From: Escherichia phage DK-13
Reading direction: 5' to 3' (one strand)
Sequence record: MT611523.1
DNA length: 64,000 nucleotides
This document shows positions 5,328 through 47,018 of the stretch, piece by piece. The first letter of the stretch is position 1; every line of letters begins with the position of its first letter. The notes beneath the pieces are model-generated. The model was not told the DNA's origin and ran no database searches. It saw only the letters and a program-made list of their open reading frames with translations. The position numbers were made by a program, and so were the translations under genes.

Positions 5328-7138
5328 TGAAACAGAATTTAAAAATTGGCAATATGGTTGATGATGGTACTGGTGATTACCTTCGTCTCGGCGGTCAAAA
5401 AATAAACAATAACTTTGACGACCTTTATTATCAGCTGGGTGATGGTGAAAATCCTCATGCGGCTGGTGCATGGAAAACTTGGACTACACAAGAAGGCACC
5501 GAGTTGTCTGCTGTTATGGGTCGAAGCTATACCATCGATACATCAGCCGGTGCGGTTCGAGTCGTCCTCCCGAAAGGAACAACTCAAGAATACAATTATG
5601 TAATTCGCTTGCGTGACGTGTTTGCTACCTGGCAAATCAACCCGGTGACAATTGTTCCTGCAGTCGGGGATACGATTAAAGGCTCACCAAATCCAGTAGA
5701 AATTAAACGCAACTTAGCTGACCTTGAACTTGTATATTGTTCACCAGGTCGTTGGGAATATATCGATAATAAACAAGTCGATAAAATTTCAAATAACGAC
5801 GTTGCTACGGTTGCATCCCAACAGTTTATTGCTACCGAAGGACAAACTGACTTTATCAATGTGTTTGGTGCTATTCCGTATAGCGTATCGAACTTAGAAG
5901 TCAAACATCGTGGTAACGACCTGTTTTATGGTAAAGATGATATTTTCGACCCGGTGAATGCTGAATTTGGTTCCCCTGGTGCAAACCCTGGCGAAATTGT
6001 TGCGCTTGACGGCAAAAGCATCCGTCTGAAAATGCCATGCGCCGAAGGTGATACGGTTATCATCCGAACATTTAATGATGGTATTGCACAATGGCGTAGT
6101 TCGTATAATCGTCGTGATGTACTTGTTCGTAGTCAGGACAGGACCAAAGAAACAACAATTAATGGTTCTTTGATTGTTACAGATTTGACAACCAAACACA
6201 CCTTTACAATTGAAGAACTTGGTATTTCTCCGGGTAGTCCAATTAACCCAAACGCATGTCAGGTATTCATTAACAGTATTTTACAACACCAAGCCGGGAC
6301 TGCAGGAACTCCAGTATTTTATTGCGAAGGTGCACAAGGTTCCACTGCGGCAGAATGTAGCGCAAATGGTGGCAGTTGGTCTGAATCAACCCAGGATTAT
6401 TTGCTGCAATTTGATGATGACAACCGCATCGAAGGTATTAGCATTTATCGTGAATTTGAAGACGGTGATATTCTGTCGGTCATTTGGTACAATAACGATA
6501 TCGGCACAACTATGACCATGGATGAAATCCGTGATGAGACTGACACTCTTTATGTTTCTCAGGGAAATACATTGAGCCTAACTGGTCGTGTACGTATTAC
6601 AGATTTTGATAATCCGTTTGCACCAAACGTTGAACCGGTCGGTCTTCAGGAAGTTGTTCCATCTTCTGTTGGCGCTATCTTTGAATTATTCTATCCGGTT
6701 GGTACAATTTACGAAAATACGGTTAACCCGAATAACCCGGTTACTTATATGGGATTCGGTTCATGGAAACGTTTGAAAGAACGTGTAATCGTTGCCTGGT
6801 CTGATGACCCTGCCTCAAACTTCCATACAAACAATAATGACCTGGATTCTGGTGGTAACCCACAAGCGACAGCGGGTGGCACAGGTGGCAGTGTTGAAGT
6901 TCATATTAAAGATATAAACGTACCTAAACTTGAAACCGATGAGAAAGTTTTGGTTGTTGATGATAATGGTCCGATTGTTGTTGGCGGTTGTCAGGTAGAC
7001 CCAGATGCACAAGGTCCAGCCTATACCAAATACAGAGAAGACAAAGCCACTATTAATCAGGCGCAAGACCCTCAAGCTCAACCGGTTTATACAATGCCTC
7101 CATATTTGATTGCTCATCGCTGGGTAAGGATTGCTTAA
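5327..7138 (+). CDS. gp10: Baseplate wedge protein gp10
   Basis: 603 aa; strong match to recalled T4 gp10 at both N-terminus (MKQNLKIGN..DDGTGDYLR) and C-terminus (RWVRIA). Confidence 0.9.
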   Translation: MKQNLKIGNMVDDGTGDYLRLGGQKINNNFDDLYYQLGDGENPHAAGAWKTWTTQEGTELSAVMGRSYTIDTSAGAVRVVLPKGTTQEYNYVIRLRDVFATWQINPVTIVPAVGDTIKGSPNPVEIKRNLADLELVYCSPGRWEYIDNKQVDKISNNDVATVASQQFIATEGQTDFINVFGAIPYSVSNLEVKHRGNDLFYGKDDIFDPVNAEFGSPGANPGEIVALDGKSIRLKMPCAEGDTVIIRTFNDGIAQWRSSYNRRDVLVRSQDRTKETTINGSLIVTDLTTKHTFTIEELGISPGSPINPNACQVFINSILQHQAGTAGTPVFYCEGAQGSTAAECSANGGSWSESTQDYLLQFDDDNRIEGISIYREFEDGDILSVIWYNNDIGTTMTMDEIRDETDTLYVSQGNTLSLTGRVRITDFDNPFAPNVEPVGLQEVVPSSVGAIFELFYPVGTIYENTVNPNNPVTYMGFGSWKRLKERVIVAWSDDPASNFHTNNNDLDSGGNPQATAGGTGGSVEVHIKDINVPKLETDEKVLVVDDNGPIVVGGCQVDPDAQGPAYTKYREDKATINQAQDPQAQPVYTMPPYLIAHRWVRIA

Positions 7139-40942: not shown

Positions 40943-43003
40943 CTACGAAAGGAATTTAGGAGGAATAGCTTCCAAATTAATACAACTAGCAAGAATACCA
41001 AGACCTTGATTGACTTTCTTCGTTACCCCAGAGGATGCAAACGATGCAAAGTCAACAGATTCTACTGGCTCTTCTGTTTCCTCGCCCTGATAAACGACAA
41101 GCTCACCAGTTTCCATCAACACATCACCATCATAGATAACTGCATTTTCATCCAGTTGGTCCGTAGTCTGGATATCAGCTTCCAGCATTTTGACGTTCGC
41201 GTTTCCTTGATACGAAGCATCAGTAATTTTGGTAATCTTAACTACAGTCCCACGAGGAAGAATAACTTCCTGCTCGGATGGGTTGCCTGACAATTCCCCA
41301 GGAACAATTACGTTAATTAAGTCCGCTCCAGAAATTTTCCAACCAACATGCATCATTACGTGTTCGCGGCGTGCTTCCGGCATATCTGGTAAAACAATTT
41401 CGTCATCAGCCTGGAAAGATGTCCCATCACGATAGTCCTGATGAACTGCAGCCATAGCAACGTTCGCCACCCAGCCACCAAAGATAATCGGTTTAAACGA
41501 CGTTGATACATAGTTCCTGAAATAAAATAATTTAGATTTCTTAATTTTATCAAATGTAGGAACGTTTAAATATTGACCACGCCAAAGAGTTGTATTAGGT
41601 GGCAACTTATGTCCAATTTCAAAGGCCGAATCCAATTCCTTAATTGTTTCGACAACTCTGTCTAGATTTAGGAATTCAGCTTCTTCTTCATAATATTTGC
41701 CCATCAAATAATTATTAATATCGGCATAGTTTGCTCCACAATAATCTGCAATTGCTTCTCGCTGACCATAATGGAAACGGTTGTCAGTATACCCTGCTGT
41801 GAAATTAAGAGTATTTTCTGATGCTTCTTCAGCAAAGTCTTTAACTGCAACACGAATGGCGCTTGTGTATTCTTTTTCCCAGAGCGAGGCTGCATAAGTG
41901 GCTGCATCCACGTTAGGAGGAGCATCATTCATTTTTCTTTCGATAAATGCGGCTTTGCGAAGGTTAAGAATCTCTGCACATGATTCGGCAAAAATCTGCA
42001 TCTGCTTCATACTACCAACTGGAGCACGTTTAAGTTCGCGATGCATACGGTTAAAAATTGGGTCAGAGTCTTCAACACGAATTTCTTCTTTCCAAACACC
42101 ATTTGCTCGCATAGCCGTATCTGCTGCGCGCATACGAGCCATAGTATTCGTTTCGGAAGGTCGAACAAAAATTTCCAGTTCTTCATAATCATCGATAAGT
42201 TCTGCCGTAGCCGGTCGGCTAAACTTAGCAGCTTCTGCATCGATTTCGTCCCAACCTTCTGGCACGGAATCACTTGGAGCGTACTGGGCTTGTGCAATAG
42301 CTCGGCGACTGATTTTAGTTTTCTGGGCAACAGCAGCATCGGTCTTTTTGTTTGCTGCGTCAATCAGAATCTCGGCTGCAATTTCTTGTTTGGATACTTG
42401 TGCACCATTATCTTTATTGGTGAATACATCACCAACTTTAGTTTCGACTTTTTTATATTTCTCAGGGACTGGTGGCATACCATCGACTGAAAGCAGGTCA
42501 ACACCCCTTTTGTACATAATTACATAAGCGTTCTTTTTACCAATGCCAGAAGCATTCGGAAGAACATGATAACGTCCGCTGGTTTTCATTTGAATCAGTC
42601 GATTCATAATACGAATAATAGCTTGGTCTTGTCCTTTCATCTTTTTGGATGGGAAACGGAACAAGACTACATCAGGTTTGCCTAGTTTAATGCTTTCCCA
42701 GACTGTAGTAAAAATCAAGTTAATTGCATCAAGAGGTTTTTCACCTAAACCACCCTTCAGAGGAACAGCATGACCGTGTGAAGTTCCGGATAACAGGAAT
42801 ACCTCGGCAATTGCATCGCCGCGTTTATATTGTTTAACTGTTTCTTTGCCCGTGAATTGCATCAAACGGGCCATAAGAGAATTGGTCCCAGGAACACCGA
42901 ATTGCCAAACCTGTGGGACCTTGTATTTTGGATTCATATTAATGACAGGATAACCGAAGGTTTCGATATATTTGTCAAAGAGTTCATTTAATTGTTCAGA
43001 CAT
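40943..43003 (-). CDS. alt: Alt, packaged ADP-ribosyltransferase
   Basis: 686 aa versus 682 in T4; position between gp54 and DNA ligase. Confidence 0.8.
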   Translation of the reverse strand: MSEQLNELFDKYIETFGYPVINMNPKYKVPQVWQFGVPGTNSLMARLMQFTGKETVKQYKRGDAIAEVFLLSGTSHGHAVPLKGGLGEKPLDAINLIFTTVWESIKLGKPDVVLFRFPSKKMKGQDQAIIRIMNRLIQMKTSGRYHVLPNASGIGKKNAYVIMYKRGVDLLSVDGMPPVPEKYKKVETKVGDVFTNKDNGAQVSKQEIAAEILIDAANKKTDAAVAQKTKISRRAIAQAQYAPSDSVPEGWDEIDAEAAKFSRPATAELIDDYEELEIFVRPSETNTMARMRAADTAMRANGVWKEEIRVEDSDPIFNRMHRELKRAPVGSMKQMQIFAESCAEILNLRKAAFIERKMNDAPPNVDAATYAASLWEKEYTSAIRVAVKDFAEEASENTLNFTAGYTDNRFHYGQREAIADYCGANYADINNYLMGKYYEEEAEFLNLDRVVETIKELDSAFEIGHKLPPNTTLWRGQYLNVPTFDKIKKSKLFYFRNYVSTSFKPIIFGGWVANVAMAAVHQDYRDGTSFQADDEIVLPDMPEARREHVMMHVGWKISGADLINVIVPGELSGNPSEQEVILPRGTVVKITKITDASYQGNANVKMLEADIQTTDQLDENAVIYDGDVLMETGELVVYQGEETEEPVESVDFASFASSGVTKKVNQGLGILASCINLEAIPPKFLS

Positions 43004-43061: not shown

Positions 43062-44594
43062 TTATTTTAATCCAGTCTTTGACCAGTCGCCAAATACATC
43101 TTCGAATGTGTCTGCATGGTCTTTATCAAAACGGAACCCTTTAATAATCGGCAGGAACAATGCAACCGTATTATCTTTACGAGTCTCGGAAGTCAACCAA
43201 CCATTACATTCACAGTCGGCAATCATTCCAACCAATTCACCTTTACGTGCTTTAACCATCAAGGCTTCACGGTCCATTTCATGACGCTCCTCAATCGGAA
43301 TAGTAACCCATTTTTTGGTTTTCTTATCTTTGACTTGAGTTGTGTCTTTAAAACCAGAACCACAGTTATTCGTAATCTTACCACAAGAAGAACGAAGCAC
43401 CACACCGCCAATCTTATTCGGGTCTTTATCGTGCTCGTAATATCCAATGATTTCCATTGCAATGTCAATTACTTCTTTGAACTTATACAGGTTCTTTGAG
43501 CGCTTGTTTTCCCAAATCGATGCCATGTTTTTAAGGATAATACCTTCAAGGCCTTCATCTACATATTTCTTATAGATAACCTTCGCTTCATCGAGATTGT
43601 TAACAACATGGTTTTCAATCAGAATCATGCGGTCGAAACCATGTAGCACCACGTTATCTGCAATCATCTTTTCCAGAACAGCAAAACGCACATCATATTT
43701 CAGCGGATTGAGAATCTTAACATCAGAATAGACTTCAATCAGTGGAACATAATCCCAAACCTGGAATTTCATACAAGAAGCTTCTGCTGCAGAAATAGTT
43801 CCTTTCAATGATTTGTTTGCCAGACCATTTGAAAAGGTTCTTGATTCAGCAGTTTCTTTTGCAGGAGCAATCTCATCTGAATCGTCAAAAAGGAAGCCCA
43901 AACCGTCATTCTGGGGAGCTATTTTCTGTTCGTGATATACTAACTCGCCATCAATTAAAACGCCCTCAGGATGTCTCTCACGCGCTTCACGGGTGGCTTC
44001 AATCAATTCCTTCTTAAGGAGGTCAAGCTTGAGGTATTCGTTACCAGCTCGGGATAACAATCGAACATCATCCAACTCATCGCCACGAACTTCTGCAAAA
44101 CATCGGGCGCCGTCGGCTTTCAATTGTGCAAAGGCCGGGAACTTAATGTTCTTAGCAATGCCAGCTTCATCATAAGAAGAAGCGAGCATCTGCTGTTGTT
44201 CAGGAATTAAACCTTTCCAAACCTTATTCGCAATTGATACAGACGCACCACATTCCAGGTCACGCATCATCACGCGGCGCAAGACTTCAACATCTGCTTT
44301 TTTACCATCTGCAATATAGCCAGATAATTCCTCGATTGCAGCATTACCTGTTAATTTGCGCGCGGCTAATGTGAATTCTATAAAGTCAAGCATATCATCA
44401 ATATTCAACATGCCAAAGCTTTGAGACGTTGTACCAGGTTTAGGCCATTTCTTTATATAGAACTGGATGCCTTTGGAATATGTCAAACGATACACACGTT
44501 TGAGGGTTTCATTGTCAGAATACGATTCCAGAATAGCTTGTTTCTCTTTAGTGGAATCGGTTGCAGCAATTTCATTTAAAATATCTAAAATCAT
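43062..44594 (-). CDS. gp30: ATP-dependent DNA ligase gp30
   Basis: Long near-identical runs to recalled T4 DNA ligase, including adenylation motif KADGARC. Confidence 0.95.
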   Translation of the reverse strand: MILDILNEIAATDSTKEKQAILESYSDNETLKRVYRLTYSKGIQFYIKKWPKPGTTSQSFGMLNIDDMLDFIEFTLAARKLTGNAAIEELSGYIADGKKADVEVLRRVMMRDLECGASVSIANKVWKGLIPEQQQMLASSYDEAGIAKNIKFPAFAQLKADGARCFAEVRGDELDDVRLLSRAGNEYLKLDLLKKELIEATREARERHPEGVLIDGELVYHEQKIAPQNDGLGFLFDDSDEIAPAKETAESRTFSNGLANKSLKGTISAAEASCMKFQVWDYVPLIEVYSDVKILNPLKYDVRFAVLEKMIADNVVLHGFDRMILIENHVVNNLDEAKVIYKKYVDEGLEGIILKNMASIWENKRSKNLYKFKEVIDIAMEIIGYYEHDKDPNKIGGVVLRSSCGKITNNCGSGFKDTTQVKDKKTKKWVTIPIEERHEMDREALMVKARKGELVGMIADCECNGWLTSETRKDNTVALFLPIIKGFRFDKDHADTFEDVFGDWSKTGLK

Positions 44595-44603
44595 AATCAC
44601 CTC

Positions 44604-44882
44604 TTAGTCGTTGGCTCTATTATATGCCACATCTTCCAAAAGCAAATCCAGACGCTTATGATAAGTGAACACAAATTTAGTCGCCCCATCCGGTTTCATT
44701 TTAGTCAGGAAGTGAACATAGATAAATCCTTGCTCAACACATTCCCGCCAGATTGGGTTATCCTTGGCCGGATTAATATCAAACGAGTAATTATGATTCA
44801 CATGACGAATAAACTGGTTAACATGACCGTAATCCATCGTGGTGGTTGGGCCACGGTCTGAAATAGTATGAACGACAAACAT
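44604..44882 (-). CDS. Hypothetical protein (30.1 position)
   Basis: 92 aa, TGATG overlap with upstream gene. Confidence 0.5.
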   Translation of the reverse strand: MFVVHTISDRGPTTTMDYGHVNQFIRHVNHNYSFDINPAKDNPIWRECVEQGFIYVHFLTKMKPDGATKFVFTYHKRLDLLLEDVAYNRAND

Positions 44883-45706
44883 CAATTACCCCCTTGTCCG
44901 CCGGTCGGTTGATTGTACCAATATTCAATGCCAGTACCTACACGCTGGCCATATTGATATGGATATGCTGGATTATATCCAGGAGTCCACGGTTGACCAG
45001 GCTGCCAGCCTTGTTGCATTTGTTGTTGAAGACGGCGAGTTTCACGAAACAGCTCATCCAGTTTACGGAGTTCATCTGGGGTGAATTCTGGTTTGACCGG
45101 TTCATCTTTGTGTTTCAGTTTAAGCTGTCCAGCAACATCGTCCCAGTTAAAAACTTTGGAAGCCGTCTTAGGAATAGCATCACGTTCGCCACGGGCCATC
45201 CAATAAACCGGGACTTCAAGGATTTCACTCGCATGGTCGCAATGGTGTGCAAGGTCATCAATATAACAAATGACATTATATTTGGTCTTCGCTTTCTGGA
45301 ATAACTCTTCTTTAGAGGCTGTATGGCCACACATCATCACTTCTTTAAATGCGCCAGGGAACAAAGCATTCAGGTTGAATTGACGATTCAGACGGGCATC
45401 AATGGAATCACCCAGAGCTGTAACGGCCACAAAATCATATTGCTCTTTGAGGTTATTAATAACCCTTAGCGCATCTGTGTAAGGAGACAAATAGCGAATA
45501 AAATCTGAACAGTTATATTTCTCAATCAACTGTGCTCCCAACTCTTCATCACAATTGAACAGTTTACCAGGGGTCACAAATTTTTCATCCTGAATCATCT
45601 TAAGGATATGTTCCAGGGGTAAATTATATTTTTGGGCGAAATAAGGCAAGCCAGACTGCCATGACAAACATACGCCATCAATATCTGTTAAAATAACGGG
45701 TTTCAT
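44882..45706 (-). CDS. HAD-superfamily phosphatase / 5'(3')-deoxyribonucleotidase-like protein with Gln/Pro/Tyr/Gly-rich C-terminal tail
   Basis: N-terminal ILTDIDGV (HAD motif I, DxDGV as in NT5C-type nucleotidases); C-terminal 45 aa low-complexity tail. Confidence 0.6.
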   Translation of the reverse strand: MKPVILTDIDGVCLSWQSGLPYFAQKYNLPLEHILKMIQDEKFVTPGKLFNCDEELGAQLIEKYNCSDFIRYLSPYTDALRVINNLKEQYDFVAVTALGDSIDARLNRQFNLNALFPGAFKEVMMCGHTASKEELFQKAKTKYNVICYIDDLAHHCDHASEILEVPVYWMARGERDAIPKTASKVFNWDDVAGQLKLKHKDEPVKPEFTPDELRKLDELFRETRRLQQQMQQGWQPGQPWTPGYNPAYPYQYGQRVGTGIEYWYNQPTGGQGGN

Positions 45707-46161
45707 AATGCATCTCTCAATTGGTTAAGTATGTCAATAAATTCTTGTTCAGTCAATATTGTATCATGAACAGTAAGGTGGCTCGCCATCGAATGCTTTA
45801 AAACTTTGCCCTTTGTAGCTTGTAATGCGTCGCGGAACCCTTTGTTTTGGAGCGCTGCTTCAAAATAAACATTTGTATACAACTCTTTCCATGATGCAGA
45901 GTATCTTGAAAAGGGAATTCCAAGCCAGAAAAGCGTCCCACGGTCCGCAGCTCTTGCATAAGCTCTTCCACTTTGCTGGGCGGCCAATCCGGACATCCCA
46001 AATATACGTTTTTGTTGTTCATGATTTCTCACCTTACACCCTTGTAGGAAGCCTTCAAGACCTCCAAACTGGATGCCATCCATAACAAAAGGCCATTTAG
46101 CAAAGTTACTTAATGCACATGATGGCCATGGGAAATTGCTTCTGATTTCTAACTCAGACAT
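45703..46161 (-). CDS. NADAR / YbiA-family (DUF1768) protein
   Basis: LSNFAKWPFVMDGIQFGGLEGFLQ resembles the conserved core of E. coli YbiA (FSNFAAWPIKVDG...EHYFQ). Confidence 0.65.
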   Translation of the reverse strand: MSELEIRSNFPWPSCALSNFAKWPFVMDGIQFGGLEGFLQGCKVRNHEQQKRIFGMSGLAAQQSGRAYARAADRGTLFWLGIPFSRYSASWKELYTNVYFEAALQNKGFRDALQATKGKVLKHSMASHLTVHDTILTEQEFIDILNQLRDAL

Positions 46162-46366
46162 CTTTGACACTTACTACATCAACGTTTGCCCAATGACCAT
46201 AACCAGGTAGACGGTCTTTAATAGATAATCCACCGTCAGATTTCAGCATTTTAATTGTTTTAGTATATGGTTCAATATTTCGGGCCCATGGACTCACGTC
46301 TGTTACGCGATAAGTAACTTCAACCATTTCTGTGCCCAAAATTTTCTGAATCAGTTTCTTAAACAT
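46154..46366 (-). CDS. Hypothetical protein
   Basis: 70 aa ORF in operon-like array, no recognisable motif. Confidence 0.45.
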   Translation of the reverse strand: MFKKLIQKILGTEMVEVTYRVTDVSPWARNIEPYTKTIKMLKSDGGLSIKDRLPGYGHWANVDVVSVKDV

Positions 46367-46934: not shown

Positions 46935-46975
46935 TCAGTATGGAATCATTATGCACTGGACAACCCCTGTTGTAA
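46935..46975 (-). promoter_or_regulatory. Early-type promoter upstream of the 105-aa gene
   Basis: Minus strand reads GTTTAC-N18-CATAATGATTCCATAC, the same downstream element as at 25110-25150. Confidence 0.45.
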
Positions 46976-46991
46976 ACCCTTTATGGAAAAT

Positions 46992-47018
46992 AAAAAAGGG
47001 ACTCCGAAGAGTCCCTGA
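46992..47018 (-). terminator. Hairpin GGGACTC-CGAAG-AGTCCC downstream of the 53-aa basic protein gene
   Basis: Stem-loop with A-run. Confidence 0.55.

What the first reader, a model, noticed from the sequence alone, without database searches (positions are those of the whole stretch)
44882..46170. NADAR/YbiA-like gene coupled to a HAD/NT5C-like phosphatase with a prion-like tail, beside the ADP-ribosyltransferase Alt
The 152-aa protein carries the YbiA/NADAR core (SNFAKWPFVMDG...EGFLQ). NADAR domains have been reported to hydrolyse ADP-ribose from guanine bases, the modification made by DarT toxins, so this is a candidate anti-defence or DNA-repair function. The overlapping upstream gene is a HAD-type (DxDGV) phosphatase ending in a 45-aa Gln/Pro/Tyr/Gly-rich low-complexity tail, which is unusual for a phage enzyme. 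The two genes overlap by 4 nt, suggesting co-expression. Alt lies about 2 kb away, so the phage may encode both writer and eraser ADP-ribosylation activities.
Basis: partly seen in the sequence, partly recalled or inferred. Interest (0 to 1): 0.65.

Follow-up and report, generated by a model that had tools for sequence, protein, structure and literature searches.

The report
Known phage anti-DarT enzyme plus phosphatase
These are the T4 genes 30.3 and 30.2 in a T4-like phage: 30.3 is AdfN, an enzyme already shown to strip ADP-ribose from phage DNA and defeat the bacterial DarTG1 defence. 30.2 is an uncharacterised phosphatase with an unusual tail that, in published T4 data, is not needed for that job.

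Summary
On the minus strand, 45703-46161 encodes a 152-aa gp30.3 protein and 44882-45706 encodes a 274-aa gp30.2 protein. They overlap by ATGA, and Alt lies 1.9 kb away. The window is a Gaprivervirus (Tevenvirinae).

gp30.3 is 85% identical to T4 AdfN. It keeps E36, K43, H123 and the C-terminal helix, and its model matches only NADAR structures. T4 AdfN has already been shown to hydrolyse ADP-ribosyl-guanine in DNA and to counter DarTG1. That part of the reading is right but already known.

gp30.2 is a capped HAD phosphatase with all four motifs invariant. Its closest fold match is 5'(3')-deoxyribonucleotidase. No HAD model reaches the Pfam cut-off for the window protein itself.

The last 47 residues are 70% Q/G/P/Y, the extreme in the window. 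The tail is lineage-variable, but it carries a conserved near-C-terminal motif, G[IVL]EY..x[QR]PT.

Functional coupling is not supported. T4 transposon sequencing shows 30.2 and alt insertions are neutral under DarTG1. The two genes lie about 58-65 kb apart in nine other T4-like genomes, and overlaps are the norm in this operon. The substrate of gp30.2 remains unknown.

The parts
45703..46161 (-). Gene 30.3 / adfN: 152-aa NADAR-superfamily DNA ADP-ribosylglycohydrolase. Key codons: E36 at 46054-46056, K43 at 46033-46035, H123 at 45793-45795. An alternative in-frame GTG start lies at 46170.
   Evidence: PF08010 hit at 5e-64, 214.7 bits. 85% identity to T4 gp30.3. AF2 pLDDT 94.5. The top three Foldseek hits are YbiA, PnNADAR and GlNADAR. 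E36 and H123 are invariant and K43 nearly so. Function shown in T4.
44882..45706 (-). Gene 30.2: 274-aa HAD-superfamily phosphatase, NT5C-like, with a C1 cap. Key codons: D8 at 45683-45685, D10 at 45677-45679, T96 at 45419-45421, K132 at 45311-45313, D150/D151 at 45254-45259.
   Evidence: phrog_420 hit at 7.5e-79. 66% identity to T4 gp30.2. Invariant HAD motifs. AF2 core pLDDT above 94. Foldseek top hit is 5'(3')-deoxyribonucleotidase 2jao, with over 100 HAD structures at E<=0.001. 23 of 57 remote relatives hit Pfam NT5C.
44885..45025 (-). Q/G/P/Y-rich C-terminal tail of gp30.2 (residues 228-274), predicted disordered.
   Evidence: Composition. Outlier within the window. pLDDT 48-65. No tandem DNA repeat.
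44903..44932 (-). Conserved near-C-terminal motif GIEYWYNQPT (family pattern G[IVL]EY[LWY]xx[QR]PT), 6 residues from the C-terminus.
   Evidence: Found 6-10 residues from the C-terminus in 16 of the 63 long-tailed database cluster representatives and in the window protein itself, including T4- and Klebsiella-phage types at 46-66% identity. Unique within the window's ORFs.
45703..45706 (-). ATGA overlap: stop of 30.3 and start of 30.2. A GAGAG Shine-Dalgarno-like sequence lies 9-13 nt upstream of the ATG.
   Evidence: the same arrangement occurs in T4
46154..46366 (-). Gene 30.4 homologue (70 aa, function unknown). Its stop overlaps the 30.3 start by 8 nt (ATGTCTGA).
   Evidence: phrog_2042. 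Junction. T4 30.4 insertions are partly depleted under DarTG1, log2FC -1.79, adjusted p 0.014. Present upstream only of T4-type AdfN genes.
44604..44882 (-). Gene 30.1 (DUF3045). Its start overlaps the 30.2 stop by 1 nt (TGATG).
43062..44600 (-). Gene 30, ATP-dependent DNA ligase. The last gene of the same tightly packed minus-strand block.
40943..43003 (-). alt, the Alt-like ADP-ribosyltransferase (686 aa).
   Evidence: 35% identity to T4 Alt over the full length, E 1e-127. SP18 annotation.
46948..47016 (-). Terminator-like hairpin (47016-46997) followed by a sigma-70-like promoter (46976-46948, 10 of 12 matches). This is the likely start of the 30.6-to-30 transcription unit.
   Evidence: consensus scan only

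Best explanation
The two genes are the Gaprivervirus orthologues of T4 genes 30.3 and 30.2. They sit in a tightly packed early/middle minus-strand block running 30.6, 30.5, 30.4, 30.3, 30.2, 30.1, 30.

**gp30.3 is AdfN.** It is a stand-alone NADAR-fold N-glycosidase.
- During infection it removes the ADP-ribose that the host DarT1 toxin attaches to guanine in phage DNA. Phage replication can then proceed in DarTG1-carrying cells.
- E36 and K43 bind and activate the ADP-ribose.
- H123 replaces the acidic residue found in other NADAR subfamilies.
- The activity and the phenotype are shown for the 85%-identical T4 protein. They are inferred here by orthology and residue conservation.

**gp30.2 is a separate, catalytically competent, Mg-dependent HAD phosphomonoesterase.**
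- It has a helical C1 cap and is closest to 5'(3')-deoxyribonucleotidases. It most likely dephosphorylates a small nucleotide-like substrate. This is inferred, and the substrate is unknown.
- Its C-terminal extension is a disordered, lineage-variable, aromatic/Pro-rich linker. It ends in a conserved short motif that probably docks onto a partner or back onto the enzyme. This too is inferred.

**Relationship between the two.** The genes are co-transcribed and translationally abutted, as most neighbours are in this block. gp30.2 is not required for AdfN's anti-DarTG1 function.
For: **Identity of the locus**
- 96% nucleotide identity to UPEC01 and VR20, with synteny to SP18 (Gaprivervirus) and T4.

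**gp30.3**
- PF08010 hit at 5e-64.
- 85% identity to T4 AdfN.
- E36 and H123 are invariant and K43 is nearly invariant across 50 relatives.
- The family profile hits YbiA (2b3w) at E 0.005 over the SNFA..EGFLQ core.
- AF2 pLDDT is 94.5. The only meaningful Foldseek hits are YbiA, the Phytophthora NADAR and the Geobacter NADAR.

**Published function of T4 AdfN**
- It is necessary and sufficient against DarTG1. Purified protein removes ADP-ribose from DarT1-modified DNA, and E36A and K43A mutants lose most of the protection (PMC11825919).
- It is active on ADP-ribosyl-guanosine but not ADP-ribosyl-thymidine in vitro (PMC11125620).
- In T4 transposon sequencing under DarTG1, 30.3 shows log2FC -7.25.

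**gp30.2**
- D8, D10, K132, D150 and D151 are invariant and T96 is nearly invariant.
- AF2 core pLDDT is above 94.
- Foldseek gives 110 PDB matches at E<=0.001, all 50 listed being HAD-superfamily enzymes, with cytosolic 5'(3')-deoxyribonucleotidase first.
- Viral structural neighbours are annotated as 5' nucleotidase.
- 23 of 57 remote relatives hit Pfam NT5C, best 1.5e-9.

**Independence of the two genes**
- T4 30.2 under DarTG1: log2FC -0.12, p 0.61, 71 insertion sites.
- T4 30.2 is non-essential, with 72 of 72 sites hit, and shows no phenotype in M9 medium.
- In nine genomes the two genes are about 58-65 kb apart.
Against: - No assay was done on this phage's own proteins.
- The window gp30.2 itself reaches no Pfam HAD or NT5C threshold: HAD_2 scores E 0.12 and 12.9 bits against a cut-off of 23.8.
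- The structural lead of NT5C over other HAD enzymes is small (TM 0.49/0.64, 17% identity). The nucleotidase assignment is therefore a best guess.
- A dNMP phosphatase has no obvious use in a phage that recycles host dNMPs.
- The NADAR-then-HAD order on one strand recurs in 37 of 76 HAD loci across diverse T4-like lineages. A link in an untested condition cannot be excluded.
- AdfN from T4 needs an unidentified T-even factor for full activity.
Confidence: 0.85

Rival explanations
1. NADAR and HAD form a two-enzyme module. gp30.2 either potentiates or localises AdfN (the missing T-even factor), or it dephosphorylates a product released when ADP-ribose is removed from DNA.
For: - 4-nt ATGA overlap.
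- A NADAR gene lies upstream of the HAD gene on the same strand in 37 of 76 HAD loci, including Acinetobacter- and Aeromonas-type T4-like phages.
- AdfN from T4 works fully only in T-even infection.
Against: - T4 30.2 insertion mutants are not depleted under DarTG1: log2FC -0.12, p 0.61, 71 sites. For 30.3 the figure is -7.25.
- Ectopic adfN alone complements.
- The genes are about 58-65 kb apart in nine genomes that keep both.
- 61 of 80 NADAR loci have no HAD gene within 6 kb.
- Overlapping or abutting junctions are the rule across 30.6 to 30.1.
Confidence: 0.08
2. Alt and the NADAR enzyme form a phage-encoded writer-eraser pair for the same ADP-ribosylation marks.
For: The genes are 1.9 kb apart on the same strand. 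The co-expression of T4-like NADAR genes with ADP-ribosyltransferases as early genes has been noted before (PMC9503650).
Against: - From established knowledge, Alt ADP-ribosylates proteins, for example an arginine in the RNA polymerase alpha subunit.
- AdfN and other NADARs act on guanine-linked ADP-ribose in DNA and not on thymine-linked ADP-ribose.
- alt insertions are neutral under DarTG1, log2FC -0.01.
- The proximity is ordinary T4 synteny.
Confidence: 0.03
3. gp30.2 is a nucleic-acid end-healing phosphatase, a 3'-phosphatase like the HAD domain of T4 Pnk. It would work with the neighbouring DNA ligase.
For: Same operon as gene 30. Polynucleotide kinase/phosphatase proteins appear among the lower-ranked viral fold matches.
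Against: - The model has a roughly 70-residue helical cap inserted between motifs I and II (helices 16-86). From general HAD knowledge this is typical of small-molecule phosphatases. Polynucleotide phosphatases have no such cap.
- The best fold and profile neighbours are nucleotidases.
Confidence: 0.06
4. The gp30.2 tail is a true prion-like or condensate-forming domain that concentrates the enzyme in a phage replication compartment.
For: 70% Q/G/P/Y over 47 residues, the extreme in the window. Predicted disordered. Family tails are enriched in Pro and Trp.
Against: - It is only 47 residues long with 13% proline.
- The Q/G richness is specific to this lineage; the pooled long tails of the family are only 3.4% Q and 5.7% G.
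- About half of the family has no tail at all.
- What is conserved is a 10-residue motif, which points to a docking peptide.
- No prion predictor was run.
Confidence: 0.1

Closest known systems
T4 gp30.3 = AdfN (anti-DarT factor NADAR); Pfam PF08010 Phage_30_3
   Same: 85% identical, same 152-aa length, same catalytic E36/K43/H123, intact C-terminal helix, and the same flanking genes and overlaps.
   Different: 23 substitutions, none at known catalytic positions. The host phage is a Gaprivervirus rather than a Tequatrovirus. Activity has not been measured for this allele.
DarG1 / DarT1-associated NADAR antitoxins and E. coli YbiA (PDB 8bat, 8bau, 2b3w)
   Same: Same fold and the same Glu/Lys ADP-ribose-binding core. 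DarG1 performs the same reaction on guanine-ADP-ribose.
   Different: 14-19% identity. His replaces the Asp or Glu at the third catalytic position. It lacks the N-terminal extension of DarG1. It is an orphan with no toxin partner. The T4 enzyme does not rescue DarT1 toxicity in uninfected cells.
T4 gp30.2 (hypothetical protein, phrog_420)
   Same: Orthologue: 66% identity overall, much higher across the HAD core than in the tail. Same gene position. Both tails end in the GIEY..PT motif.
   Different: The middle of the tail has diverged. It is Q/G-rich here and N/T/H/aromatic-rich in T4.
5'(3')-deoxyribonucleotidases (NT5C family, PF06941: human/mouse cdN and mdN, S. epidermidis 3bwv)
   Same: HAD fold with a C1 cap. 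Motif I is DxDGV. Asp, Asp, Thr, Lys and Asp-Asp are all present. It is the top structural neighbour.
   Different: 16-19% identity. The window protein has no Pfam NT5C hit. It carries an extra helix (residues 210-233) and a disordered tail. The substrate is unknown.

Membership tests
NADAR superfamily, phage gp30.3/AdfN subfamily | Significant match to the family profile (PF08010) | tested here: met
   E 5e-64, 214.7 bits against a cut-off of 36, covering profile positions 2-138 of 138.
NADAR superfamily, phage gp30.3/AdfN subfamily | NADAR alpha+beta fold | tested here: met
   AF2 pLDDT 94.5. Foldseek ranks 1-3 are YbiA 2b3w (E 3e-5, TM 0.63), PnNADAR 8bau and GlNADAR 8bat. All other matches have E above 1.
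NADAR superfamily, phage gp30.3/AdfN subfamily | Catalytic Glu and Lys (T4 E36, K43), and His at the third catalytic position that marks the phage subfamily | tested here: met
   E36, K43 and H123 are present. E36 and H123 are invariant and K43 is at least 90% conserved in 50 relatives. Their roles are described.
NADAR superfamily, phage gp30.3/AdfN subfamily | Intact C-terminal helix (its loss in RB69 reduces activity) | tested here: met
   Full-length 152 aa, with helix 138-151 in the model.
NADAR superfamily, phage gp30.3/AdfN subfamily | Direct match to the general NADAR/YbiA profile (PF08719) | tested here: not met
   The window protein has no PF08719 hit at E<=0.1. Some family members carry both Pfam hits. 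The family profile reaches YbiA only at E 0.005. The link to NADAR therefore rests mainly on fold and catalytic residues.
NADAR superfamily, phage gp30.3/AdfN subfamily | Hydrolysis of ADP-ribosyl-guanine in DNA; protection from DarTG1 | not testable with these tools
   Shown for the T4 orthologue only.
HAD superfamily phosphatase | Motifs I-IV: DxDx[TV], S/T, K, DD | tested here: met
   D8-I-D10-G-V12, T96, K132, D150-D151. All are invariant across 50 relatives except T96, which is at least 90% conserved.
HAD superfamily phosphatase | HAD Rossmann-like core fold with a cap | tested here: met
   Core pLDDT above 94. Foldseek gives 110 PDB matches at E<=0.001; all 50 listed are HAD enzymes at probability 1.00.
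HAD superfamily phosphatase | Pfam HAD model at or above the gathering score | tested here: not met
   The window protein scores E 0.12 and 12.9 bits on HAD_2 against a cut-off of 23.8. Among relatives, 13 of 50 hit PF00702, best 9.6e-5.
NT5C 5'(3')-deoxyribonucleotidase family (PF06941) | Profile match to PF06941 | tested here: inconclusive
   The window protein has no hit. 8 of 50 close relatives hit weakly, best 0.0029. 23 of 57 remote relatives hit, best 1.5e-9. This is transitive support only.
NT5C 5'(3')-deoxyribonucleotidase family (PF06941) | Closest solved structures are deoxyribonucleotidases | tested here: inconclusive
   2jao ranks first (E 1.6e-8), and 3bwv, 2i7d and 1q92 rank high. 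YfnB, haloacid dehalogenases and epoxysuccinate hydrolases score almost the same.
NT5C 5'(3')-deoxyribonucleotidase family (PF06941) | dNMP phosphatase activity | not testable with these tools
Prion-like / low-complexity domain | Long Q/N-rich segment, poor in proline and charged residues, scored by a prion predictor | tested here: inconclusive
   47 residues, Q+N 28%, G 21%, Y 13%, but P 13%. It is a compositional outlier. No PLAAC or PAPA run was available.

The most novel reading that the evidence does not exclude
The 30.4-30.3-30.2 block is more than synteny.

- **30.4.** The 70-aa gp30.4 could be the unidentified T-even-specific factor that AdfN needs for full activity. It overlaps the adfN start. 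It is the only other gene significantly depleted in the T4 transposon screen under DarTG1. It is found only next to T4-type AdfN genes.
- **30.2.** gp30.2 could use its conserved C-terminal GIEY..QPT peptide to dock onto a partner. It would then dephosphorylate a nucleotide or an ADP-ribose-derived metabolite in a defence context not yet tested.
Probability: 0.12. Interest if true: 0.55.

Novelty: already known. Interest (0 to 1): 0.25.

Why it matters
The NADAR gene predicts that this phage resists DarTG1-type defence, which is useful for host-range or therapy annotation. The biology, however, was published for T4 in 2024-2025.

Three things remain open:
- the substrate and role of the widespread gp30.2 phosphatase;
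- the meaning of its conserved tail motif;
- the identity of the T-even factor that AdfN needs.

The data here argue against gp30.2 for that last role and point weakly to gp30.4.

Tried and rejected
- **Sequence search of PDB with the gp30.2 profile.** No meaningful hit. The HAD call therefore rests on motifs, fold and remote relatives.
- **Pfam and NCBIfam on gp30.2.** Nothing at threshold.
- **Literature search for 'gp30.2'.** Zero papers. A broader search on 30.2/30.3 found only the AdfN paper.
- **Tail as a DNA tandem repeat.** None found.
- **Tail motif elsewhere in the window.** None found.
- **Tail presence versus NADAR adjacency.** No correlation. Long-tailed forms occur both next to NADAR and far from it, and short forms also sit next to NADAR.
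- **gp30.2 as AdfN's missing factor.** Rejected on the T4 transposon data.
- **AFDB fold search.** The library was not available.
- **Complex prediction of AdfN with gp30.2 or gp30.4.** Not possible with the tools and caps.
Full report
**What is there.** The window is a T4-like phage.
- The 1.8-kb region is 96% identical at the DNA level to Escherichia phages UPEC01 and VR20, and 93.5% identical to Shigella phage SP18, a Gaprivervirus in the Tevenvirinae.
- All relevant genes are on the minus strand, in the T4 order: alt (40943-43003), gene 30 DNA ligase (43062-44600), 30.1 (44604-44882), 30.2 (44882-45706), 30.3 (45703-46161), 30.4 (46154-46366), 30.5 and 30.6.
- The quoted motifs, the ATGA overlap and the distance to Alt all check out.
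- The one slip is orientation. The HAD gene lies downstream of the NADAR gene in the direction of transcription.

**gp30.3 is AdfN.**
- It matches Pfam PF08010 (Phage_30_3) at 5e-64 and is 85% identical to T4 gp30.3 with no gaps.
- In an alignment of 50 relatives, E36 and H123 are invariant and K43 is nearly so.
- The family profile reaches E. coli YbiA at E 0.005 across the SNFA...EGFLQ core.
- The AlphaFold model has pLDDT 94.5. It matches YbiA, the Phytophthora NADAR bound to ADP-ribose, and the Geobacter DarT1-associated NADAR. Nothing else scores meaningfully.

The literature has already settled the function.
- Johannesman et al. (Nat Commun 2025, PMC11825919) renamed T4 30.3 as adfN. They showed it is necessary and sufficient for resistance to DarTG1.
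- In that study the purified protein removed ADP-ribose from DarT1-modified DNA. The E36A and K43A mutants lost most of the protection, as did a version truncated at the C-terminal helix.
- Toxins 2024 (PMC11125620) showed the phage NADAR hydrolyses guanosine-linked but not thymidine-linked ADP-ribose.
- Mol Cell 2023 (PMC11543638) describes the His that replaces the Glu or Asp in phage NADARs.
- The window allele keeps every one of these features, including the C-terminal helix.

**gp30.2 is a HAD phosphatase.**
- No Pfam or NCBIfam model reaches threshold on the window protein. A family profile finds nothing meaningful in PDB by sequence.
- The four HAD motifs are nevertheless present. D8, D10, K132, D150 and D151 are invariant in 50 relatives down to 36% identity, and T96 is nearly so.
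- The AlphaFold model has pLDDT above 94 for residues 1-200. A helical cap is inserted between motifs I and II.
- Foldseek returns 110 PDB matches at E<=0.001. All 50 listed are HAD-superfamily enzymes, with mouse cytosolic 5'(3')-deoxyribonucleotidase first.
- Viral structural neighbours are annotated as 5' nucleotidases.
- A full profile search of 1.84 billion representatives found 1,179 relatives. Of 57 sampled mostly from the weaker end of the listed hits, 23 hit Pfam NT5C, best 1.5e-9. A profile built from them weakly hits solved nucleotide phosphatases.

I conclude it is an active, capped, small-molecule phosphatase. It is most similar to deoxyribonucleotidases, and its substrate is unknown.

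**The tail.**
- In the last 47 residues Q is 21%, G 21%, P 13% and Y 13%, with almost no charged residues.
- A 47-residue window over this tail reaches 70% Q/G/P/Y, against 45% for the next ORF and a median of 23%.
- It is predicted disordered and is not encoded by a DNA tandem repeat.
- Across the family, about half of the proteins stop at roughly 200-220 residues and have no tail. The other half carry tails of 35-160 residues that are rich in Pro and Trp rather than Q and G.
- What is conserved is a short motif, G[IVL]EY[LWY]xx[QR]PT, 6-10 residues from the C-terminus. It occurs in 16 of the 63 long-tailed database cluster representatives and in the window protein itself. These include T4 and Klebsiella- and Citrobacter-phage types at only 46-66% identity.
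- A WxxPG-like motif upstream is also recurrent.

The tail therefore looks like a variable disordered linker carrying a docking peptide. It does not look like a generic prion-like domain. The partner is unknown.

**Are the two genes functionally coupled?**

Evidence for:
- the ATGA overlap;
- a NADAR gene within 1.3 kb upstream of the HAD gene, on the same strand, in 37 of 76 HAD loci from diverse T4-like phages.

Evidence against:
- Nine genomes keep both genes but about 58-65 kb apart.
- 61 of 80 NADAR loci have no HAD gene within 6 kb.
- Nearly every junction from 30.6 to 30.1 overlaps or abuts. All these genes lie downstream of one terminator and promoter-like pair at 47016-46948.
- The T4 transposon-sequencing data set (HIDEN-SEQ, bioRxiv 10.1101/2025.11.20.689424, Extended Data Table 6) is the strongest evidence. 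Under DarTG1, 30.3 shows log2FC -7.25. Gene 30.2 shows -0.12 (p 0.61, 71 sites) and alt shows -0.01.
- Gene 30.2 is also non-essential in LB (72 of 72 sites hit) and neutral in M9 medium.

So gp30.2 is not the T-even factor that AdfN is reported to need. The Alt writer-eraser idea has no support either.

**A lead outside the given coordinates.**
- The only other significant gene under DarTG1 in that screen is 30.4 (log2FC -1.79, adjusted p 0.014). It overlaps the adfN start by 8 nt.
- In the fetched loci, a 30.4 homologue lies directly upstream of every T4-type AdfN gene. It is absent near the divergent (about 40% identical) NADARs.
- This could be a polar effect plus simple synteny. Alternatively, gp30.4 could be the missing potentiator. 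I rate the polar explanation as more likely.

**Verdict.** The NADAR interpretation is right but already published. The HAD assignment is supported. The proposed coupling and the link to Alt are not supported. The modest new points are the conserved C-terminal motif in gp30.2 tails and the argument that gp30.2 is not AdfN's cofactor.

Noticed in passing
window 46154-46366 (-), gene 30.4 homologue: In published T4 transposon sequencing, 30.4 is the only gene besides adfN significantly depleted under DarTG1 (log2FC -1.79, adjusted p 0.014). It overlaps the adfN start by 8 nt. It is found upstream only of T4-type AdfN genes in the loci examined. The cause is either a polar effect or a role as cofactor.
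   Followed up: partly
window 44903-44932 (-), gp30.2 residues 259-268: A conserved near-C-terminal peptide G[IVL]EY[LWY]xx[QR]PT sits in otherwise divergent gp30.2 tails of T4-, Gaprivervirus- and Klebsiella/Citrobacter-phage types. Its partner is unknown.
   Followed up: partly
window 45798-46022 (-), nested in 30.3 in the +1 frame: This 74-aa ORF corresponds to T4's annotated 30.3' (internal translation in another frame). The frame stays open (53-75 aa) in all 14 distinct T4-type adfN genes examined. It is mostly closed in divergent NADAR genes. That may simply reflect close relatedness.
   Followed up: partly
window 46948-47016 (-): A strong terminator-like hairpin (8-bp stem, 5 GC pairs, T-run) is followed immediately by a 10-of-12 sigma-70-like promoter, upstream of the 30.6 homologue. 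This probably marks the start of the 30.6-to-30 transcription unit.
   Followed up: no
window 40943-43003 (-): The window has a single 686-aa Alt next to the ligase gene, only 35% identical to T4 Alt. The related phage SP18 is annotated with two Alt paralogues (alta, altb) at this position.
   Followed up: no
locus L012 (IMGVR_UViG_2974741249_000001), 5636-6004: In one RB69-like genome the adfN reading frame is open only for its C-terminal 122 residues. This suggests an N-terminal disruption, a possible natural adfN pseudogene distinct from the RB69 C-terminal frameshift.
   Followed up: no
window 43062-44600 (-): The ligase ORF as listed starts at a GTG (MIMILDILNE...). The second ATG two codons downstream matches my recollection of the T4 N-terminus, so the true start is probably 44594.
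   Followed up: no
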